Source: Candidatus Altimarinota bacterium (GTDB lineage: Bacteria; Patescibacteriota; Gracilibacteria; UBA1369). Taken from it: a stretch of DNA of 32,000 nt. This document shows positions 301 through 26,742 of the stretch, piece after piece. The number at the start of each line of letters is the position of its first letter. Positions within the stretch are counted from its first letter, which is position 1. The DNA lies in the NCBI GenBank assembly GCA_041659405.1, contig JBAZYK010000009.1:1-32000 (forward strand), in the 5' to 3' direction. The notes beneath the pieces are model-generated. The model saw only the letters and a list, made by a program, of their open reading frames with translations, had not been told where the DNA came from and ran no database searches. The translations under genes were made by a program, and so were the position numbers.

Positions 301-354
301 TCAGTGGCTCAAAAAAAATCCAAAAAGTTCTCAACCACTCACTATTTTATTAAG

Positions 355-492
355 GTTTTCTGGGGAATTATTTCTTGGCGACGTTGCGAGCGCAGCCAGT
401 CGAGCATCATGATGCGAGACTTTCGTGAGGGCGTACATGCTAGCCCGAACGAACCGGCGAAGCGTTCGCCAAGAAATAATTCCCCAGAAAAC
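355..492 (+). repeat. Conserved-core / variable-arm hairpin element, copy A
   Basis: Perfect 26-bp stem: 356-381 (TTTTCTGGGGAATTATTTCTTGGCGA) pairs with 466-491, plus G355-C492. The stem encloses an ~85-nt GC-rich core shared with 9811-9895 and 18807-18890. The core includes the palindrome GCATCATGATGC (404-415). The element is intergenic, upstream of rny. Confidence 0.85.
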
Positions 493-544
493 TCAATGTA
501 AAAGCTAGTAAGTGGAGACTTAATGTGTACTTATTTTAAATCCA

Positions 545-9692: not shown

Positions 9693-9781
9693 TCCGGCTT
9701 AGGTTTAATCCCATGGTCATACTGCGAAATATTTGTAGTAGGCTATTGTTTTGTATGGTTCAACGCTCACTGGTTTATCTA

Positions 9782-9924
9782 AGTTTTTGTAGGGAATGGC
9801 ATCCTGGCGACATTTGCGAGCGCAGCCGGTCGAGCATCATGATGCGAGACCTTCGCGGAGGCGTACATGTTAGCCGCAGCGAATTGGCGAAGCGTTCGCC
9901 AGGATGCCATTCCCTACAAAAACT
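9782..9924 (+). repeat. Conserved-core / variable-arm hairpin element, copy B
   Basis: Perfect 28-bp stem: 9783-9810 (GTTTTTGTAGGGAATGGCATCCTGGCGA) pairs with 9896-9923, plus A9782-T9924. The core 9811-9895 is homologous to copies A and C. The element lies between the convergent acyP and rplT genes. Confidence 0.85.
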
Positions 9925-9969
9925 CAACGCAAAAACAGGAACAGTTACACATTAACAAAGGTTGTTTAT

Positions 9970-15868: not shown

Positions 15869-15952
15869 AAAATCTAAAAAATAAATATTTCACTGAGCAC
15901 ATCCGGGGTAGGGGCCCTGTGTGCGAAGGGGAATATTTATTTTTTAGATTTT
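15869..15952. repeat. Long intergenic hairpin (21-bp perfect AT-rich stem, 38-nt GC-rich core) between folE and recR
   Basis: 15869-15889 (AAAATCTAAAAAATAAATATT) is the exact reverse complement of 15932-15952. Inner pairs are T15890-G15931 and C15891-G15930. The core is ACTGAGCACATCCGGGGTAGGGGCCCTGTGTGCGAAGG, with an internal GCACA/TGTGC helix. Confidence 0.8.
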
Positions 15953-16595: not shown

Positions 16596-18677
16596 TTAAG
16601 AAACTTCTTTTACCGGATATATTCGCGCGATTTTACCATCTGCAACGATTCTGACTTTCTTATGACCGGCAAAATCATTGCTTAATCCCAAAGCCCTTTC
16701 CCCCAAACAGTTACGGATAACTTCTCGAGTTTTTGCAATAAGTGGATTAGCAGCTCCCTTCGCGTAATCTTTAATTAGAATATTTCTATCATGAAAAAGA
16801 AGAGTTACCCCTCTTTCCAATGCCAATGTTTCAATATGTCCTCGACCTGGTTCAGTTGCATAAACAATCATCGCAGCGCCCTCTTTTGGCATCGCTCTAT
16901 CCAACGTGGGCGTTTGCGTTGAGCCCATCCAGCTAGTGGCATATACCACTAACCCTTTTTTATCATTGTTATTATCATAAACATTCAATAAATCTAACTC
17001 TTGATCACAAATACCTTCAGCTGAACATTCATAAATTGGGTGCATATCTTTAGGAAATTCAACCGGAGGTGCATTAAACATTTTTGCTGGCAACGGTCTT
17101 GCCTGTAAAAAATCAAAACTTAGCCTCCCCTTGCTCCATTCGTGTTTAAACGAGAACTCAATTTGAACCGGCCGCCCATAATATCTTTCCAGTATGCGAG
17201 CAAAAGCAATAATGTCCGTTGACTGAAATTCTAAATGATCCATCTGCCAAAACTCACCCTGTACGCGACTTGCACATTTAAATACCTCTACCCCACTTTG
17301 GTCTAAAAATGTCAGTTTATCAAACTCAGGAGTATCAAAAATAAAAGGGGCCCTTTGATTTTCACCCTTCATATCCACAGTATCATCTGAATATGGTCTT
17401 GTTGAATTGATATACCTAAGATCAGGGTCTTCGATTCGTTCCTGAACGACAAGCCCCATAAGCTCTTCTTCAACACCATTATCCGCTCTATATTTTTTTG
17501 CAATCTCAGAATCACAACTTTCATAAACTTTTTGAACGGCCTCCAAAAATTGTTGAAAAGTGGCATCTTCTTCAAGTGGAACACTCAAATAAATTCCCGC
17601 ACCGGTCATCTTTTCTCCATCCTCGGAATAAACTGCACTACTACGGACCATCATTGGTTTTTCCTTATACATTTCATATGTTGCTCGAAGGTTTTCTGTA
17701 ACATCTTCTTTATTTTTCCATTTTTTATAAATGTCTATTCCTACAAGGCTGAATGGAGGAATAGAAATATTAGCCGCAAGCTGCCCAAATTGAGTCCCTT
17801 TAAATTTTGGAAGGAGTTTTTGTACTGCTATAAGATTTGCCCCTTTTGCCCCAAATAATAAGCGATCTCTATTAACTTCAGCATGATCAACGTTGCCAAG
17901 TGCATCCATCAATTTTTTCTCTGCTTCAATTGCTTTAATTACTTCAACCACATACCTAAGACTGCCCATTGACTGCCCTCCATTTGTAAAGTTGAAATTA
18001 ATGTCATCATATCGGGATAATCCGTAAACGCCTTCTGGGGTTAGAGGTTTTCCTGATTCATCATCAGAATACCTTTTGTGTACTGATAATTTTCCGCTAG
18101 AAGCTATCCAGGCAATTCCTAAATTTAAACTCTGGGCCAATTGGTAACGTTGTGCAAGTGGCATTTTAGGATCAATTGCGTCGGCTTCTTTTTCAAGAAT
18201 TTTTACAGGAGTTAATTCCATTTCTTGAATAATTGATCGCAAACAATCAATACTAAGGTCAATTGCGTGATATATTTCCCACCTTGGGTCCTCATTTCCC
18301 TCCTCATCATCAGAGCTTTCCGCATCTTCATTAAGCTCATCATTTACATCTTCCTGATCAGGATTTTGCTCTGTATAAACATCACTTACTTCTAAGAGAT
18401 TTTTTTGTTCAGCTAATTTAGCCGATACTTGGCTAATAAAGGCCATATAACCGTTTTCATCTAAAAATGATCCTTGAATGGAAGAAAAAGCTTTGTCTAT
18501 AATTGCCCAGGAACTGTCACCAAAACCCTTAAGATCCGTAAAGTAAGCCCTCATGTCTTCAACGATTCTCGCAGCAACTTCTTCGGAATTAGTTGGGTTG
18601 CCACCTTCAAAATGAAGTTCCTCCAAAGCATTTGTAATACCTGATTCTAATTGATTGTCCCTGACTTGCGCTTCCAT
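16596..18677 (-). CDS. PEP-utilising-enzyme-like protein: unknown acidic N-terminal region, then PPDK_N-type ATP-grasp, then swivel phospho-His domain, with no PEP/pyruvate TIM barrel
   Basis: 693 aa. LLFGAKGANLIAVQKL resembles the GGKGANL nucleotide-binding start. MMVRSSAVYSEDGEKMTGAGIYLSV resembles VRSSAxxED...AGxxxT.L.V. Also present are LMGLVVQERI, GRPVQIEFSF and FLQARPLP. The C-terminal GAAMIVYATEPGRGHIETLALERGV...VRIVADGKIARIY resembles the mobile His domain (candidate His614 at 16836-16838). The first ~270 aa include a poly-acidic tract (DQEDVNDELNEDAESSDDEEGNED). Confidence 0.6.
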   Translation of the reverse strand: MEAQVRDNQLESGITNALEELHFEGGNPTNSEEVAARIVEDMRAYFTDLKGFGDSSWAIIDKAFSSIQGSFLDENGYMAFISQVSAKLAEQKNLLEVSDVYTEQNPDQEDVNDELNEDAESSDDEEGNEDPRWEIYHAIDLSIDCLRSIIQEMELTPVKILEKEADAIDPKMPLAQRYQLAQSLNLGIAWIASSGKLSVHKRYSDDESGKPLTPEGVYGLSRYDDINFNFTNGGQSMGSLRYVVEVIKAIEAEKKLMDALGNVDHAEVNRDRLLFGAKGANLIAVQKLLPKFKGTQFGQLAANISIPPFSLVGIDIYKKWKNKEDVTENLRATYEMYKEKPMMVRSSAVYSEDGEKMTGAGIYLSVPLEEDATFQQFLEAVQKVYESCDSEIAKKYRADNGVEEELMGLVVQERIEDPDLRYINSTRPYSDDTVDMKGENQRAPFIFDTPEFDKLTFLDQSGVEVFKCASRVQGEFWQMDHLEFQSTDIIAFARILERYYGRPVQIEFSFKHEWSKGRLSFDFLQARPLPAKMFNAPPVEFPKDMHPIYECSAEGICDQELDLLNVYDNNNDKKGLVVYATSWMGSTQTPTLDRAMPKEGAAMIVYATEPGRGHIETLALERGVTLLFHDRNILIKDYAKGAANPLIAKTREVIRNCLGERALGLSNDFAGHKKVRIVADGKIARIYPVKEVS

Positions 18678-18761
18678 TGGATTTTAGCTTACATATCCTG
18701 CTCACGATCACCCTGTAGAGAGGGTAGAACTCTATCACTAAAAAGGCGTTGGTCAAGCAAA

Positions 18762-18938
18762 ATCACCAGTTTTTCAAAGTTTCCGGAGGGAATGTTTTTT
18801 TGGCGACATTGCGAGCGCAGCCAGTCGAGCATCATGATGCGAGACTTTCGGAAAGGCGTACATGTTAGCCTTTTCGAACAGGCGAAGCGTTCGCCAAAAA
18901 AACATTCCCTCCGGAAACCCTCATTGAAAACTGGTGAT
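18762..18938 (+). repeat. Conserved-core / variable-arm hairpin element, copy C (longest stem)
   Basis: Perfect 27-bp stem: 18780-18806 (TTTCCGGAGGGAATGTTTTTTTGGCGA) pairs with 18891-18917. Beyond a small internal loop there is a further ~15-bp extension, 18762-18777 with 18924-18938, carrying one bulged T. The core 18807-18890 is homologous to copies A and B. The element fills the carB to 693-aa-gene intergenic region, and its right end touches the carB stop codon. Confidence 0.85.
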
Positions 18939-21900
18939 CATGTATACTCCGCCCACTCTTTAATCTTCAAATCCTCCAGTTTGTATCTCGATAAAGCCTC
19001 AACAATCACACCCGCAACCTGCAAATTGGTCACCAGCGGAATGTTTAAGTCGATGGCTTTACGTCTGATCAAATAGCCATCAGTCACCTCTTCACGACTA
19101 TAATTTTTTGGGATATTGACCACAAGATGAATTTTTCCGCTGCCCAAAAGATCCAACAAATTGGGTTTTTGTTTACCGCTGATTTTGTGTACCAAAGTGT
19201 TGCGAATTTCATTTGCATCCAAAAACGCCGAAGTCCCTTCCGTGGCAAAAAGTTCAAATCCAAGACTCTGCAATTTACGGGCAGACTCCAAAAATTCCGC
19301 TTTATCTTCAATTTTTCCAATGCTCAAAAGTACGCGTTTTTCAGGAATCTTAAATCCAACCGAAATCATTGATTTCAAAAATGCTTCATACATATCATTT
19401 CCAAAACAAGCGACTTCGCCAGTTGAAGCCATTTCTACGCCCAAAACCGGATCGGCACCCTTCAAACGTGAAAAAGAAAATTGCGAAACTTTCACACCAA
19501 CATGATCCAAATCCAAAGTCCTGTAATTTTGTTTACGGAAATAGCTTAAAGATTTTCTGCCAAGCATTGCCTGGGTCGCAATTTCAATAAAATTATAGCC
19601 TGTAACTTTGGATGAAAATGGAAAAGATCGGCTCGCCCGCAGGTTACACTCGATCACCTTAATTTGGTTACTCTTAGCCAAAAATTGGATATTGAAAGGC
19701 CCGGTAATTTTAAGTTCGCGCGCGATTTTTCTGGTAACATCTTTCACTCTGCGAATCGTTTCAATATAAAGTTTTTGCGGAGGAAGCACGATGGACGCAT
19801 CTCCGGAATGCACACCCGCATTTTCAATATGTTCGGCAATCGCATAGATCAAAATATCGCCTTTCAAAGCCACGGCATCGACTTCAATTTCTTTGGCCCC
19901 GGTTTCAAATTTGCTCACCACCACCGGCGCATCAGAAGAAATTCGCGTCGCTTTATTTAAAAACGCCATCAAAGTTTCATCGGTGTGTGCCACGCTCATT
20001 GCCGCACCGGAAAGCACATAAGAAGGTCTTACCAAAACCGGATAACCAACATCTTTCGCAAACTTTTTTACCTGATCAATGCCTGTAAGCTCTTGCCATT
20101 TTGGCTGATCAACTCCCAGTTTATCCAACATTTGTGAAAACTTATGTCGATCTTCGGCACGATCAATATTTTCCGCAGTCGTCCCCATAATTTTAATTTT
20201 TTCCTGCGCAAGTTTAAGCGCCAAATTGTTGGGAACCTGTCCTCCCATCGACACAAAAACGCCTTCAGGATTTTCCTTTTCAATAATATCCATCACTCTT
20301 TCCAAAGACAGTTCATCAAAATACAACTTATCCGACATATCATAATCGGTGGAAACGGTTTCCGGATTATAGTTAATCATGATCGTCTCGTAACCACATT
20401 TTCCGACGGAGGTAAGCGCATTAACGCAGCACCAGTCAAACTCAACCGAAGTTCCAATCGCATAAGGACCAGACCCTAAAACAATCATTTTTTTCTTACC
20501 ACGCGCAGAGCCTTTCTTCTTGCTGAAATCCACATCATCCTCTTCCCCATGATAAGTCAGATAAAGATAATTTGTTTTTGCCGGATATTCCCCCGCCATC
20601 GTATCAATCTGTTTTACCACGGGAATCACACCAAGTTTTTTGCGATAATTGCGAAGATCTTTTTCGGTACGGCCGGTAATTTCGGCTAACTGCTTATCGG
20701 AAAAGCCTTCCTGTTTTACTTTTTTTAAAAGATCCCGCGGCAAATCTTTATGTTTTTTTACTTCCGCTTCCGTCTCCACAATATTTTTTAATTTATCCAA
20801 AAACCACAAATCAATTCCGGAAAGTTTATTGATTTTTTCCGTAGACATTCCTTTTTGCAGAGCTTCCGCAATTGCCACAATGCGGCGAGGAGTTGGATGA
20901 CTTATTTCATTCTCCAAATTTTTGTGTTGGATTCCAAGTTTATCATTTGCCACAAAACCATAAAGCCCAATTTGCAGCATACGCAAGCCTTTTTGCATCA
21001 CTTCTTCAAAGCTTCTGCCAATGGCCATAATTTCTCCAACCGACTTCATTTCGGAAGAAATTTCCTGAGAAACCATGCGGAATTTATCCAAATCCCAGCG
21101 TGGAATTTTCAAAGCAAGATAATCAAGCGCCGGTTCAAAGCAGGCAGTTGTGGTCTTGGTAACGGCATTTTTTAATTCAGGCAAGGTATATCCAAGCGAC
21201 AATTTTGCAGCCACATGAGCCAAAGGATAACCGGTAGCCTTACTCGCAAGGGCCGAACTGCGGCTTAAACGCGCGTTTACTTCAATAATACGATAGTCTT
21301 CAGATTTTGGATCAAGCGCGTATTGAATATTACATTCACCCACAATTTTCAAATGTCTGATTACCTTAATCGCAATTTCACGCAAACGGTGATATTCATG
21401 ATTGGTTAAAGTCTGGGAAGGCGCAATTACAATACTTTCGCCGGTATGAATTCCAAGCGGATCAAAATTTTCCATATTACAAACCGTAATGCAGTTATCG
21501 GCCGCATCACGCACCACTTCATATTCAACTTCCTTCCAACCTTTCAGGTTTTCTTCAACCAAAACCTGTGGGGAATAAGCAAAAGCAGTTTCCAAAAGTT
21601 CATCCAATTCTTTTTCACTGTAAGCAAATCCGGACCCCTTTCCTCCAAGTGCAAAAGCCGCCCGAATAATTACGGGATAGCCAATTTTTTCAGCTGCGCG
21701 CATACCTTCCGCTTTGTTTTTACAGGCCAGACTATTTGGCACCTTCATGCCAATTGAAACCATTTCTTTATTGAAAACTTCACGATCTTCCGTCTTTTGA
21801 ATCGCTTCAACCTGGGTTCCTAAAACGCGAACATTGTGTTTCTTTAAAATATTTTTTTCATGAAGTTCAACTCCACAATTAAGCGCTGTTTGCCCACCAA

Positions 21901-22198
21901 AAGTCAGCAAAATACCGTCAGGTTTTTCTTTTTCGATAACCTTCGAAACAAAATAGGCATTCACCGGCAAAAAATAAATTTTATCAGCCAAACCTTTGCT
22001 GGTCTGATTTGTGGCGATATTTGGATTTATGAGAACTGTAAAAATCCCCTCCTCTTTAAGGGCTTTAATGGCTTGAGAACCGGAATAATCAAATTCACCC
22101 GCTTCACCAATTTTCAACGCTCCAGACCCAAGGATTAAAACCTTTTTTGGATGGGCCCTTTTAAGCGATTTTTTATTAGAAGTAAGGGATGAAACCAT
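18938..22198 (-). CDS. carB: Carbamoyl-phosphate synthase large subunit
   Basis: 1086 aa with duplicated ATP-grasp halves. Matching segments include VLILGSGALKIGEAGEFDYSGSQA..., IIEVNARLSRSSALASKATGYPLA, MIVLGSGPYAIGTSVEFDWCCV and IKVIECNLRASRSFPFSSKVTG, plus a C-terminal MGS-like domain. Confidence 0.95.
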   Translation of the reverse strand: MVSSLTSNKKSLKRAHPKKVLILGSGALKIGEAGEFDYSGSQAIKALKEEGIFTVLINPNIATNQTSKGLADKIYFLPVNAYFVSKVIEKEKPDGILLTFGGQTALNCGVELHEKNILKKHNVRVLGTQVEAIQKTEDREVFNKEMVSIGMKVPNSLACKNKAEGMRAAEKIGYPVIIRAAFALGGKGSGFAYSEKELDELLETAFAYSPQVLVEENLKGWKEVEYEVVRDAADNCITVCNMENFDPLGIHTGESIVIAPSQTLTNHEYHRLREIAIKVIRHLKIVGECNIQYALDPKSEDYRIIEVNARLSRSSALASKATGYPLAHVAAKLSLGYTLPELKNAVTKTTTACFEPALDYLALKIPRWDLDKFRMVSQEISSEMKSVGEIMAIGRSFEEVMQKGLRMLQIGLYGFVANDKLGIQHKNLENEISHPTPRRIVAIAEALQKGMSTEKINKLSGIDLWFLDKLKNIVETEAEVKKHKDLPRDLLKKVKQEGFSDKQLAEITGRTEKDLRNYRKKLGVIPVVKQIDTMAGEYPAKTNYLYLTYHGEEDDVDFSKKKGSARGKKKMIVLGSGPYAIGTSVEFDWCCVNALTSVGKCGYETIMINYNPETVSTDYDMSDKLYFDELSLERVMDIIEKENPEGVFVSMGGQVPNNLALKLAQEKIKIMGTTAENIDRAEDRHKFSQMLDKLGVDQPKWQELTGIDQVKKFAKDVGYPVLVRPSYVLSGAAMSVAHTDETLMAFLNKATRISSDAPVVVSKFETGAKEIEVDAVALKGDILIYAIAEHIENAGVHSGDASIVLPPQKLYIETIRRVKDVTRKIARELKITGPFNIQFLAKSNQIKVIECNLRASRSFPFSSKVTGYNFIEIATQAMLGRKSLSYFRKQNYRTLDLDHVGVKVSQFSFSRLKGADPVLGVEMASTGEVACFGNDMYEAFLKSMISVGFKIPEKRVLLSIGKIEDKAEFLESARKLQSLGFELFATEGTSAFLDANEIRNTLVHKISGKQKPNLLDLLGSGKIHLVVNIPKNYSREEVTDGYLIRRKAIDLNIPLVTNLQVAGVIVEALSRYKLEDLKIKEWAEYT

Positions 22199-26594: not shown

Positions 26595-26742
26595 GATTTT
26601 TTACTCCTATTTTTTTGTGCAGACAACCTCGAGGCCGAGCGGGCATGGCTGCCGCAGGCAGAGCGAGGCCGAGAGCTTAGCGCGGCTCGACTCGCAGGGG
26701 CGAGCAAGCGGGTCTGCACGGAAAAATAGGAGTAAAAAAATC
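26595..26742 (+). repeat. Long intergenic hairpin (~30-bp AT-rich stem, 87-nt GC-rich core) between the GT4 gene and the DciA-like gene
   Basis: 26595-26624 (GATTTTTTACTCCTATTTTTTTGTGCAGAC) pairs with 26712-26742 (GTCTGCACGGAAAAATAGGAGTAAAAAAATC). The stem has one bulged A and two T-G pairs (26616/26720 and 26615/26721). Those are wobbles only in a plus-strand RNA. The core contains GAGGCCGAG twice and a CTGCC-GCA-GGCAG hairpin. The right arm ends in the GT4 stop codon. Confidence 0.8.

What the first reader, a model, noticed from the sequence alone, without database searches (positions are those of the whole stretch)
18762..18938. Copy C: ~42-bp composite stem filling an intra-operon gap between carB and the PPDK-like gene
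Copy C has the 27-bp perfect stem (18780-18806 / 18891-18917). Beyond a small internal loop it has a second ~15-bp helix (18762-18777 / 18924-18938, one bulged T). The last base of that helix is the first base of the carB stop codon (TGA, 18940-18938 on the minus strand). The element thus occupies most of the 260-nt spacer between two co-directional minus-strand genes, carB and the 693-aa gene. It would be co-transcribed in antisense orientation relative to its own + orientation. A near-perfect duplex of this length is a textbook RNase III substrate. It could act as a processing, stability or insulation element, functionally analogous to REP elements. The hairpins at 15869-15952 and 26595-26742 occupy the same kind of position (folE to recR; GT4 to DciA-like). 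Long hairpins therefore appear to punctuate co-directional genes in this genome.
Basis: partly seen in the sequence, partly recalled or inferred. Interest (0 to 1): 0.65.

Follow-up and report, generated by a model that had tools for sequence, protein, structure and literature searches.

The report
Replication-polarised hairpin repeat after carB
The long hairpin after the carB gene is one copy of a hairpin-shaped DNA repeat scattered through this small-genome Peregrinibacteria bacterium and its relatives, not a purpose-built mRNA-processing site. Its copies almost always point the same way relative to DNA replication, which hints at how the family spreads or works.

Summary
A 28-bp perfect stem plus a 15-bp outer helix encloses an 84-nt core and abuts the carB stop codon.

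The operon reading does not hold as the element's purpose.
- Copy C is one of 11 full, 2 variant and 2 half copies in this 1.5-Mb genome. Relatives occur patchily in Peregrinibacteria.
- The family avoids co-directional spacers (2 of 12 against 67% expected).
- The downstream 693-aa gene is lineage-specific and has a promoter-like site of its own.
- The same-genus genome has carB and folE but no element.

The dynamics are DNA-level. Arms are 98% Watson-Crick and differ between copies. The conserved tip is inverted between collinear flanks at orthologous loci.

New here: the tip lies on the C-rich (lagging-sense) strand in 15/15 copies here, 7/7 in a complete relative, 9/9 in other genomes and 9/12 on metagenome contigs. 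The only other exceptions are in one genus.

No Y1/RAYT or TnpB partner and no Rfam match were found.

This scan had already followed up copies A and B and similar conserved-tip hairpin families in other CPR genomes.

The parts
18762..18777 (+). Outer helix, 5' arm (ATCACCAGTTTTTCAA). It pairs with 18924-18938 with one bulged T.
   Evidence: 12 bp exact; 15 bp by reading. The region is homologous among copies but only about 61% identical.
18779..18806 (+). Left arm of the 28-bp perfect stem.
   Evidence: Arm identity among genomic copies is about 80%, yet each copy is internally perfect.
18807..18890 (+). Conserved 84-nt core (the tip). It holds the junction CATTGCGA and P2 (18815-18822 with 18881-18890), which encloses P3 and P4.
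   Evidence: Mean pairwise identity among copies is 88%. It is conserved across two families of the order.
18823..18846 (+). P3 hairpin AGTCGAGC-ATCATGAT-GCGAGACT, with a tandem G.A/A.G mismatch and a palindromic loop.
   Evidence: repeat I2. There are 26 distinct covarying versions: 158 Watson-Crick, 44 G.A, 3 G.T and 1 A.C pairs.
18847..18878 (+). P4 hairpin TTCGGAAAGGC-GTACATGTTA-GCCTTTTCGAA. In this copy it has one G.T wobble that is readable only on the + strand.
   Evidence: 22 distinct outer helices, all paired. The loop GTACATG is invariant.
18891..18918 (+). Right arm of the 28-bp perfect stem.
18924..18938 (+). Outer helix, 3' arm. Its last base is the A of the carB TGA stop on the minus strand.
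   Evidence: The carB C-terminus has the normal length compared with 17 relatives.
18938..22198 (-). carB (carbamoyl-phosphate synthase large chain, 1086 aa), upstream of the element.
16596..18677 (-). Lineage-specific 693-aa gene with a PPDK_N domain, downstream of the element.
   Evidence: It is found in only 2 of 36 family genomes and is absent from the same-genus genome at this slot.
18729..18756 (-). Promoter-like site TTGACC-16 nt-TAGAGT (preceded by TG), directly downstream of the element and 52 nt upstream of the 693-aa start codon.
   Evidence: This is a consensus match only: 1 found against 0.9 expected in the region.
339..510 (+). Copy A of the same family (arms 355-381 / 466-492).
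9767..9935 (+). Copy B of the same family (arms 9782-9810 / 9896-9924). It is absent at the orthologous site of the same-genus genome.

Best explanation
Copy C is a member of a Peregrinibacteria-specific family of non-coding, hairpin-shaped interspersed DNA repeats of about 175-190 bp. Each has a conserved three-way-junction tip on a long, fast-changing, perfectly paired stem.

Shown:
- This copy landed right at the carB stop codon, in a variable slot of the chromosome.
- It is not part of a conserved operon.
- Copies come and go between close relatives.
- The family avoids co-directional, operon-internal spacers.
- The tip can flip in place.
- The tip is polarised with respect to the replication strand.

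Inferred:
- The stem stays perfect and the tip flips through DNA-level template switching or recombination between the arms, not through selection on an RNA helix.
- New copies are made, or kept, in one orientation relative to the replication fork. This points to a single-stranded DNA stage in which the tip is the module recognised by a trans-acting protein that has not been identified.
- Any effect on carB mRNA (a 3' stem-loop, an RNase III cut, partial termination) is a side effect of where this copy landed.
For: Family: 11 full, 2 variant and 2 half copies in G000. The same architecture, with unrelated arms, occurs in 12 of 201 genomes of the order, in Peregrinibacteria/Peribacteria genome assemblies and on metagenome contigs.

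Gain and loss: the same-genus genome G126 has no copy. Its orthologous sites for copies B and C lack the element. None of 17 relatives has the element after carB.

Not operon-linked: the 693-aa gene is in 2 of 36 family genomes. Only 2 of 12 copies lie in co-directional spacers against 67% expected, p = 5e-4. A promoter-like site follows the element.

DNA-level dynamics:
- Arms show 844 Watson-Crick, 10 G.T, 5 A.C and 4 other pairs over 37 distinct elements.
- The tip is inverted between collinear flanks and arms at two orthologous loci of genus g68.
- A double substitution perfects the P3 palindrome in L047 relative to its orthologue L041.
- Template switching is documented to homogenise inverted-repeat arms and invert spacers (PMC8604942, PMC8794818).

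Polarity:
- The tip '+' strand lies on the C-rich strand in 15/15 G000 copies.
- The same holds for 7/7 full copies (29 of 30 matching pieces) in the complete genome G080.
- It also holds for 9/9 copies in other genomes and 9/12 on metagenome contigs.
- On one contig, copy A is sense to its neighbouring gene and copy C is antisense to its neighbours. In G080 four co-directional copies are sense. Orientation therefore tracks replication, not transcription.
Against: - No mobilising enzyme was found. Y1_Tnp is absent from G000, G080, G001, G062 and G071. TnpB is absent. G000 has no multi-copy IS.
- No target-site duplication could be defined. The filled-versus-empty comparison for copy B is not clean to the base.
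- At orthologous loci the tip is about 94% identical while the arms are about 67% identical. That degree of tip conservation after insertion suits a host-level function or a structural constraint as well as it suits a selfish element.
- The strand that folds better ('+': about 20 G.T against 6 A.C, with purine-purine internal loops) is the lagging-sense strand. That is not the lagging-strand template used by IS608-type elements (PMC5027513).
- Replication-linked orientation bias is also known for non-ssDNA insertion sequences (PMC3971601).
- In genus g68, 5 of 9 copies break the polarity rule.
Confidence: 0.6

Rival explanations
1. One reading: the element is a host-selected RNA device in the carB transcript. 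On this view it serves as an RNase III processing site, a 3' stabiliser or an insulator between co-transcribed genes.
For: The minus-strand RNA would fold at -101 kcal/mol with 28 + 15 bp of duplex. RNase III is encoded. Four U follow the hairpin on the minus strand. Correia elements of Neisseria are bound or cleaved by RNase III (PMC2649163).
Against: The family avoids co-directional spacers. Most copies lie in convergent or divergent spacers. The gene pair is not conserved, and the close relative lacks the element. The tip is conserved but would be irrelevant to RNase III. Tip orientation relative to genes differs among copies and genomes and flips at orthologous loci. The arms carry almost no G.U pairs. 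The terminator scan found nothing.
Confidence: 0.1
2. The element is a structured non-coding RNA gene. The '+' strand is transcribed, and the long stem presents a conserved three-way junction to a protein partner.
For: P3 and P4 covary widely: 26 and 22 distinct helices. G.T wobbles exceed A.C on the '+' strand (about 20 against 6). Purine-rich internal loops (tandem G.A) are conserved. Tip loops are nearly invariant across two families of the order.
Against: There is no Rfam match even at E up to 10. No conserved promoter was seen. The copy number of 13 and the presence/absence between congeners are unlike a housekeeping RNA. The '+' strand is systematically the lagging sense, so transcription would run head-on to replication. 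The 98% Watson-Crick arms and the templated double substitutions fit DNA processes. No transcript data could be obtained.
Confidence: 0.12
3. The element is a host DNA-level site that is read in a replication-polar way. Examples would be a binding or loading site for a replication, repair or chromosome-organisation protein acting on one strand. Copies are kept because they are useful.
For: Polarity with GC skew is strict in most genomes. The tip is conserved at orthologous loci more than the arms are. Copies are spread around the whole G080 chromosome. REP/BIME elements bind gyrase and IHF (my own knowledge).
Against: Only 12 of 201 genomes of the order have it, and the same-genus relative has none, so it is dispensable. 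Copy number varies from 1 to 13. Truncated and decayed copies exist. In genus g68 flipped copies persist.
Confidence: 0.15

Closest known systems
REP/BIME elements and REPINs mobilised by RAYT (Y1 HUH) transposases
   Same: Short, non-coding, extragenic palindromic repeats in many copies per genome. They form hairpins, sit near gene ends, can affect mRNA, and are thought to move as single-stranded DNA at the fork (PMC6006769).
   Different: In REP/REPIN the conserved sequence is the stem itself, with a 5' GTAG. Here the stem varies and a 84-nt structured tip is conserved. No Y1_Tnp gene is present in 5 of 6 element-bearing genomes tested.
Correia repeat-enclosed elements (CREE) of Neisseria
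   Same: Elements of about 100-150 bp with inverted repeats and a core. They are intergenic, are often co-transcribed, and are bound or cleaved by RNase III (PMC2649163).
   Different: CREE inverted repeats are conserved among copies, carry promoter elements and a TA target duplication. Here the arms drift, no target duplication was seen, and the element avoids operon-internal positions.
IS200/IS605 single-strand 'peel and paste' transposition (IS608, ISDra2)
   Same: Orientation is biased with respect to the replication fork, and recognition relies on imperfect hairpins with non-canonical pairs (PMC5027513, PMC3201880).
   Different: No TnpA or TnpB was found. The better-folding strand is the lagging-sense strand, not the lagging-strand template. 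The whole element is one hairpin rather than two subterminal ones.
Template-switch (quasi-palindrome) correction and spacer inversion at inverted repeats
   Same: It explains perfect arms that differ between copies, the double substitution that perfects P3, and inversion of the tip between collinear flanks (PMC8604942, PMC8794818, PMC7202029).
   Different: It is a mutational process, not an element. It does not explain tip conservation, multiplication or replication polarity.
T- or Y-shaped hairpin ends of parvoviruses (AAV ITR flip/flop); analogy only, from my own knowledge
   Same: A long palindromic stem is capped by small hairpins that form a three-way junction. Two orientations of the tip exist, and the stem is kept perfect because one arm is copied from the other.
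   Different: Those are termini of linear ssDNA genomes with a Rep nickase. Here the copies are internal chromosomal repeats with no Rep-like gene detected and no viral contigs.

Membership tests
REPIN / REP-RAYT system | A cognate RAYT (Y1 HUH transposase, PF01797) in the same genome | tested here: not met
   No match in G000 or in G080, G001, G062 and G071. There is one match, with an in-frame TGA, in G053.
REPIN / REP-RAYT system | The conserved sequence lies in the palindromic stem (with a 5' GTAG-type tetranucleotide), and copies are near-identical in the stem | tested here: not met
   Arms are 79-80% identical within G000 and unalignable between genera, while the tip is conserved.
REPIN / REP-RAYT system | Extragenic and multi-copy | tested here: met
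   There are 15 loci, all between ORFs or overlapping only gene ends.
MITE derived from an insertion sequence | Terminal inverted repeats shared with a parent IS that encodes a transposase | tested here: not met
   G000 has no multi-copy transposase-like gene; the only paralogous families are HNH-type proteins and a few others. No conserved neighbouring gene was found in 33 loci.
MITE derived from an insertion sequence | Target-site duplication flanking each copy | tested here: inconclusive
   Copy ends fade gradually (outer region 61% identical). The filled-versus-empty comparison for copy B is not clean to the base.
Any Rfam RNA family | Match to a curated covariance model | tested here: not met
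   The only hit at gathering threshold in the window is a tRNA. Only chance-level hits (E > 1) occur over 18700-19000.
Intrinsic (Rho-independent) terminator | A GC-rich short-loop hairpin followed by a U tract | tested here: not met
   The scan found none in 18500-19100. Only UUUU follows the 177-nt hairpin on the minus strand.
Integron attC site | Conserved R/L boxes at the stem base, a variable tip, and arrays next to an integrase | tested here: not met
   The layout is the opposite: conserved tip and variable base. Copies are dispersed between housekeeping genes.
RNase III substrate (functional class, not a family) | At least about 20 bp of near-perfect dsRNA in a transcript, and RNase III present | tested here: inconclusive
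   Duplex length is met in silico. The RNase III gene is present.
IS200/IS605-like ssDNA transposition (works-like) | Insertion orientation biased relative to the replication fork | tested here: met
   15/15 in G000, 7/7 in G080 and 9/9 in other genomes. Exceptions are mainly in one genus, g68, plus 3 of 12 metagenome contigs.

The most novel reading that the evidence does not exclude
The conserved tip is a single-strand-specific module that is read on the lagging-sense strand. This could make the family a new kind of replication-coupled mobile element that works without an HUH/Y1 transposase. Alternatively, it could be a chromosomal signal used by the replication or repair machinery of these reduced genomes. 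In either case the long self-correcting stem would serve only to extrude the tip.
Probability: 0.2. Interest if true: 0.8.

Novelty: new variant of a known kind. Interest (0 to 1): 0.5.

Why it matters
For this locus, annotators should not read the carB-to-downstream spacer as an operon processing signal. It is a repeat insertion in a variable slot.

For the family, three properties together are not described for REP, MITE, Correia or RPE elements in the papers I could search:
- a conserved structured tip on drifting but perfect arms;
- in-place flipping of the tip;
- near-complete polarity with the replication strand.

The polarity gives a concrete, testable handle on mechanism: a single-stranded stage at the fork, in bacteria (CPR) where almost nothing is known about mobile DNA or replication. 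The family is also a clean natural example of perfect compensatory-looking stems that arise from DNA template switching rather than RNA selection. That is a caution for covariation-based RNA discovery.

Tried and rejected
- Known RNA family: rejected. Rfam scans were negative at gathering threshold and at E up to 10.
- RAYT/REPIN and TnpB partners: rejected. The family searches were negative.
- Parent insertion sequence: none found. Paralogue clustering in G000 found only HNH-type proteins and a few other families. The half copies at C9:62928 and C14:15436 have no transposase nearby.
- Conserved neighbouring gene as a partner: rejected. Neighbours are ordinary housekeeping genes such as PFOR, ClpP, RimK, KsgA, the S41 protease and a VirB4-like ATPase.
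- Phage origin: no support. There were no matches in viral contigs.
- Consensus folding of a MAFFT alignment of the tip was uninformative because the alignment shifts register. Anchor-based pair counts were used instead.
- A covariance model was not built, because the pattern and nhmmer searches already recovered the family.
- The Herbaspirillum and Micrarchaeota-bin pattern hits are chance matches without the hairpin.
- Energy difference between the two strands as an explanation of polarity: RNA-parameter folds of both strands show no consistent difference.

Full report
**Observation**

The sequence is as described.
- One search finds perfectly complementary arms at 18779-18806 and 18891-18918. 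That is 28 bp, one more than reported, around an 84-nt centre.
- One search also finds an exact outer pair at 18762-18773 / 18927-18938. By direct reading it extends to 18762-18777 / 18924-18938 with one bulged T.
- The minus-strand ORF 18938-22198 is carB (CPSase_L domains). Its TGA stop shares base 18938 with the outer helix.
- The next minus-strand ORF (693 aa, PPDK_N domain) starts at 18677. The spacer is therefore 260 nt.
- The arm never occurs in shuffled sequence. The minus-strand RNA would fold at -101.4 kcal/mol, z = -9.2.

**It is a repeat family**

The window holds three copies with a nearly invariant centre and different but internally perfect arms. In the whole 1.51-Mb assembly (21 contigs), BLAST and an nhmmer profile find:
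- 11 full copies;
- 2 variants with other arms (C1:130925-131135 and C8:21590-21760);
- 2 half copies.

Within the genome, mean pairwise identity falls from tip to base. It is 88% for the core, 79-80% for the 28-bp arms and 61-62% for the outer region.

The family reaches beyond this genome.
- A DNA search of 201 genomes of the same order finds the core in 12, in two families. The one other genome of the same genus has none.
- A pattern scan of public genomes finds it only in Peregrinibacteria/Peribacteria assemblies, plus two chance hits that lack the hairpin.
- Metagenome contigs add 11 more. Viral contigs add none.
- In every relative the layout is the same. A near-perfect stem, up to 34 bp without a gap and unrelated in sequence between genera, closes a tip with two conserved hairpins.

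**Anatomy of the tip**

- P3 (18823-18846) is a hairpin with a tandem G.A/A.G mismatch and the loop ATCATGAT. Twenty-six distinct versions covary: 158 Watson-Crick, 44 G.A, 3 G.T and 1 A.C pairs.
- P4 (18847-18878) has the invariant loop GTACATG, a purine-rich internal loop and 22 different outer helices, all paired.
- P2 (18815-18822 with 18881-18890) closes the two hairpins into a three-way junction. In one relative (L036) it is replaced by a continuous 7-bp helix.
- No Rfam family matches, even at E up to 10.

**The locus is not an operon**

- The 693-aa gene is found in only 2 of 36 genomes of the family, whereas carB is in 21.
- In the same-genus genome G126 the order is carB, an unrelated 211-aa ORF, folE, recR. 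The slot between carB and folE is therefore variable.
- G126 has no trace of the element after carB.
- G126 also lacks copy B at its orthologous site. There, the two flanking genes and the bidirectional terminator are present, but about 275 nt including the element are missing.
- None of 17 relatives has the element downstream of carB. The carB protein ends at the usual place.
- Immediately after the element on the minus strand lies TTGACC-16-TAGAGT, preceded by TG (18756-18729), 52 nt before the 693-aa start. This is only a consensus match, but it fits an independent promoter.

**The family avoids operon-internal positions**

By my own ORF-based gene calls:
- 5 copies lie between convergent genes, 5 between divergent genes, 2 between co-directional genes and 1 at a contig edge;
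- 67% of adjacent gene pairs, and 62% of intergenic length, are co-directional;
- the depletion is therefore significant (p = 5e-4 by count and 2e-3 by length).

The genome has 28 exact inverted repeats of at least 18 bp, against none in a shuffle. They are of several kinds.
- Eleven belong to this family.
- About nine belong to a second family with its own conserved tip. The folE-recR hairpin at 15869-15952 is a member, and that family has at least 28 loci.
- The hairpin at 26595-26742 is a singleton.

**DNA-level dynamics**

- Over 37 distinct elements the long arms show 844 Watson-Crick pairs, 10 G.T, 5 A.C and 4 other mismatches. That is 98% Watson-Crick with almost no wobble. From my own knowledge, this is unlike selected RNA helices.
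- At two loci shared by congeneric species (G062 against G071 and G053), the flanking genes and the arms are collinear but the tip is reverse-complemented.
- At one of these loci, L047 differs from its orthologue L041 by two adjacent substitutions that turn the G.A/A.G mismatch of P3 into perfect pairs. This is the signature of a templated correction.
- Template switching between inverted-repeat arms is documented to homogenise arms and invert spacers (PMC8604942), and to create and maintain perfect hairpins (PMC8794818; see also PMC7202029).

The perfect stem of copy C is thus not in itself evidence for a selected RNA duplex.

**Replication polarity (new here)**

I call '+' the orientation of copy C on the window's + strand. 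The tip's '+' strand lies on the locally C-rich strand as follows:
- 15 of 15 loci of G000;
- all 7 full copies, and 29 of 30 matching pieces, in the complete 998-kb genome G080, spread from 77 to 948 kb on a chromosome whose + strand is C-rich throughout;
- 9 of 9 in seven other genomes;
- 9 of 12 on metagenome contigs, with one clear exception;
- in genus g68: G062 3 of 3, G071 1 of 3 and G053 0 of 3. These are the very loci where the tip has flipped, while the flanks keep their skew.

In G000 the skew is a strand property and not a coding effect.
- GC3 skew is +0.26 for genes on the G-rich strand and -0.20 for genes on the C-rich strand.
- The G-rich strand carries the 23S rRNA gene, 26 of 41 tRNA genes and 54% of genes.
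- By the usual rule, the G-rich strand is therefore the leading strand.

Orientation follows this strand and not transcription. On one contig, copy A is sense to its downstream gene and copy C is antisense to its neighbours. In G080 four co-directional copies are all sense.

**Which strand folds**

- Wobble pairs favour the '+' strand. There are about 20 G.T (10 in arms, 3 in P3, about 7 in P4) against 6 A.C (5 in arms, 1 in P3). The P4 script did not score A.C symmetrically.
- The internal loops are purine-purine on '+'.
- The usual deamination bias would push the other way.
- The better-folding strand is thus the lagging-sense strand. That differs from IS608, whose active strand is on the lagging-strand template (PMC5027513).
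- Replication-linked orientation is also known for other insertion sequences (PMC3971601).

I therefore infer only that a replication-coupled, strand-specific step exists. I do not infer which step.

**No partner found**

- Y1_Tnp is absent from G000, from two complete element-bearing genomes and from two more. It is present once, interrupted by a TGA, in G053.
- TnpB is absent.
- G000 has no multi-copy transposase, only paralogous HNH-type proteins.
- Genes next to copies in other genomes are ordinary housekeeping genes with no recurring partner.

RNase III is encoded (C5:69370-69768). If carB transcription reads into the element, a 28 + 15-bp duplex would be a substrate, as for Correia elements (PMC2649163). 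This remains possible as a side effect for this copy. The evidence above argues against it being what the element is for.

**Comparison and novelty**

The element works most like REP/BIME, Correia and other small palindromic repeats. It fails the defining tests of REPIN/RAYT (no RAYT; conserved tip rather than conserved stem) and of IS-derived MITEs (no parent IS). I found no description in the searchable literature.

Earlier agents of this scan already followed up copies A and B of this window. They reached the hairpin-repeat and self-correcting-arm reading. The scan has also met similar conserved-tip hairpin families that flip in other CPR genomes. I used those notes as leads.

- the operon-avoidance statistic;
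- the variable carB-folE slot;
- the replication polarity with its g68 exceptions.

**Limits**

- Gene calls are my own ORF heuristic.
- Copies related by descent are not independent, so the p-values are indicative.
- The leading/lagging assignment rests on the usual skew rule plus rRNA and tRNA orientation.
- There are no transcript or population data.

Noticed in passing
G080 whole chromosome (loci L103-L152; PGYE01000001, HGW-Peregrinibacteria-1, 998,424 bp): Cumulative GC skew falls monotonically across the entire single-contig genome, from -0.4 to -29.7 in 10-kb windows, with no origin/terminus turning points. Gene strands are balanced. Such one-strand disparity has been reported for some Microgenomates (PMC7143001), and that paper states that Peregrinibacteria have normal skew.
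   Followed up: partly
window 15869-15952 and at least 28 other loci in G000 (for example C3:55411-86863, C6:59022-77406): A second conserved-tip hairpin family (tip CACATCCGGGGTAGGGGCCCTGTGTGCGAAGGGGAATAT) on variable stems. Many copies are clustered in co-directional arrays on contig C3, possibly the attC-like sites of the cassette arrays noted earlier in this genome. Its orientation also leans to the C-rich strand (21 against 7), but the copies in arrays are not independent.
   Followed up: partly
window 16596-18677 (-) against L079:4306-4941 in G126: The slot between carB and folE holds a 693-aa PPDK_N-domain gene here and an unrelated 211-aa ORF in the same-genus genome. This looks like a small hotspot of gene turnover between conserved housekeeping genes.
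   Followed up: partly
G000 C1:140098-141132, C1:166737-167888, C11:7734-9074, C17:10235-11788 and about 7 more: About eleven paralogous proteins share a C-terminal HNH-like motif (C..PGC.. HHT.RF ... C..H..AH) and a conserved N-terminal region. They are the only large multi-copy protein family in the genome. No link to this element was found.
   Followed up: no
G080: 35-nt unit matching L097:4782-4816, at about ten further sites (for example G080:C1:120628, 652370, 679931, 925104): In this relative the element is embedded in a longer conserved unit. Its right-flank 35-mer (…CTGAGGTGCAATTTCCCGCTGGGG) also occurs alone, in small clusters 75-160 nt apart, all on the same strand.
   Followed up: no
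G053:C11:53326-53685 (-): This is the only Y1_Tnp (IS200/IS605-type transposase) match among six element-bearing genomes, and it carries an in-frame TGA. It may be a pseudogene or a recoded gene.
   Followed up: no
G000 C10:8017-8187: This copy overlaps the 3' ends of both convergent neighbouring ORFs, by 19 nt and 3 nt. As at carB, the element seems to supply or abut stop codons.
   Followed up: no
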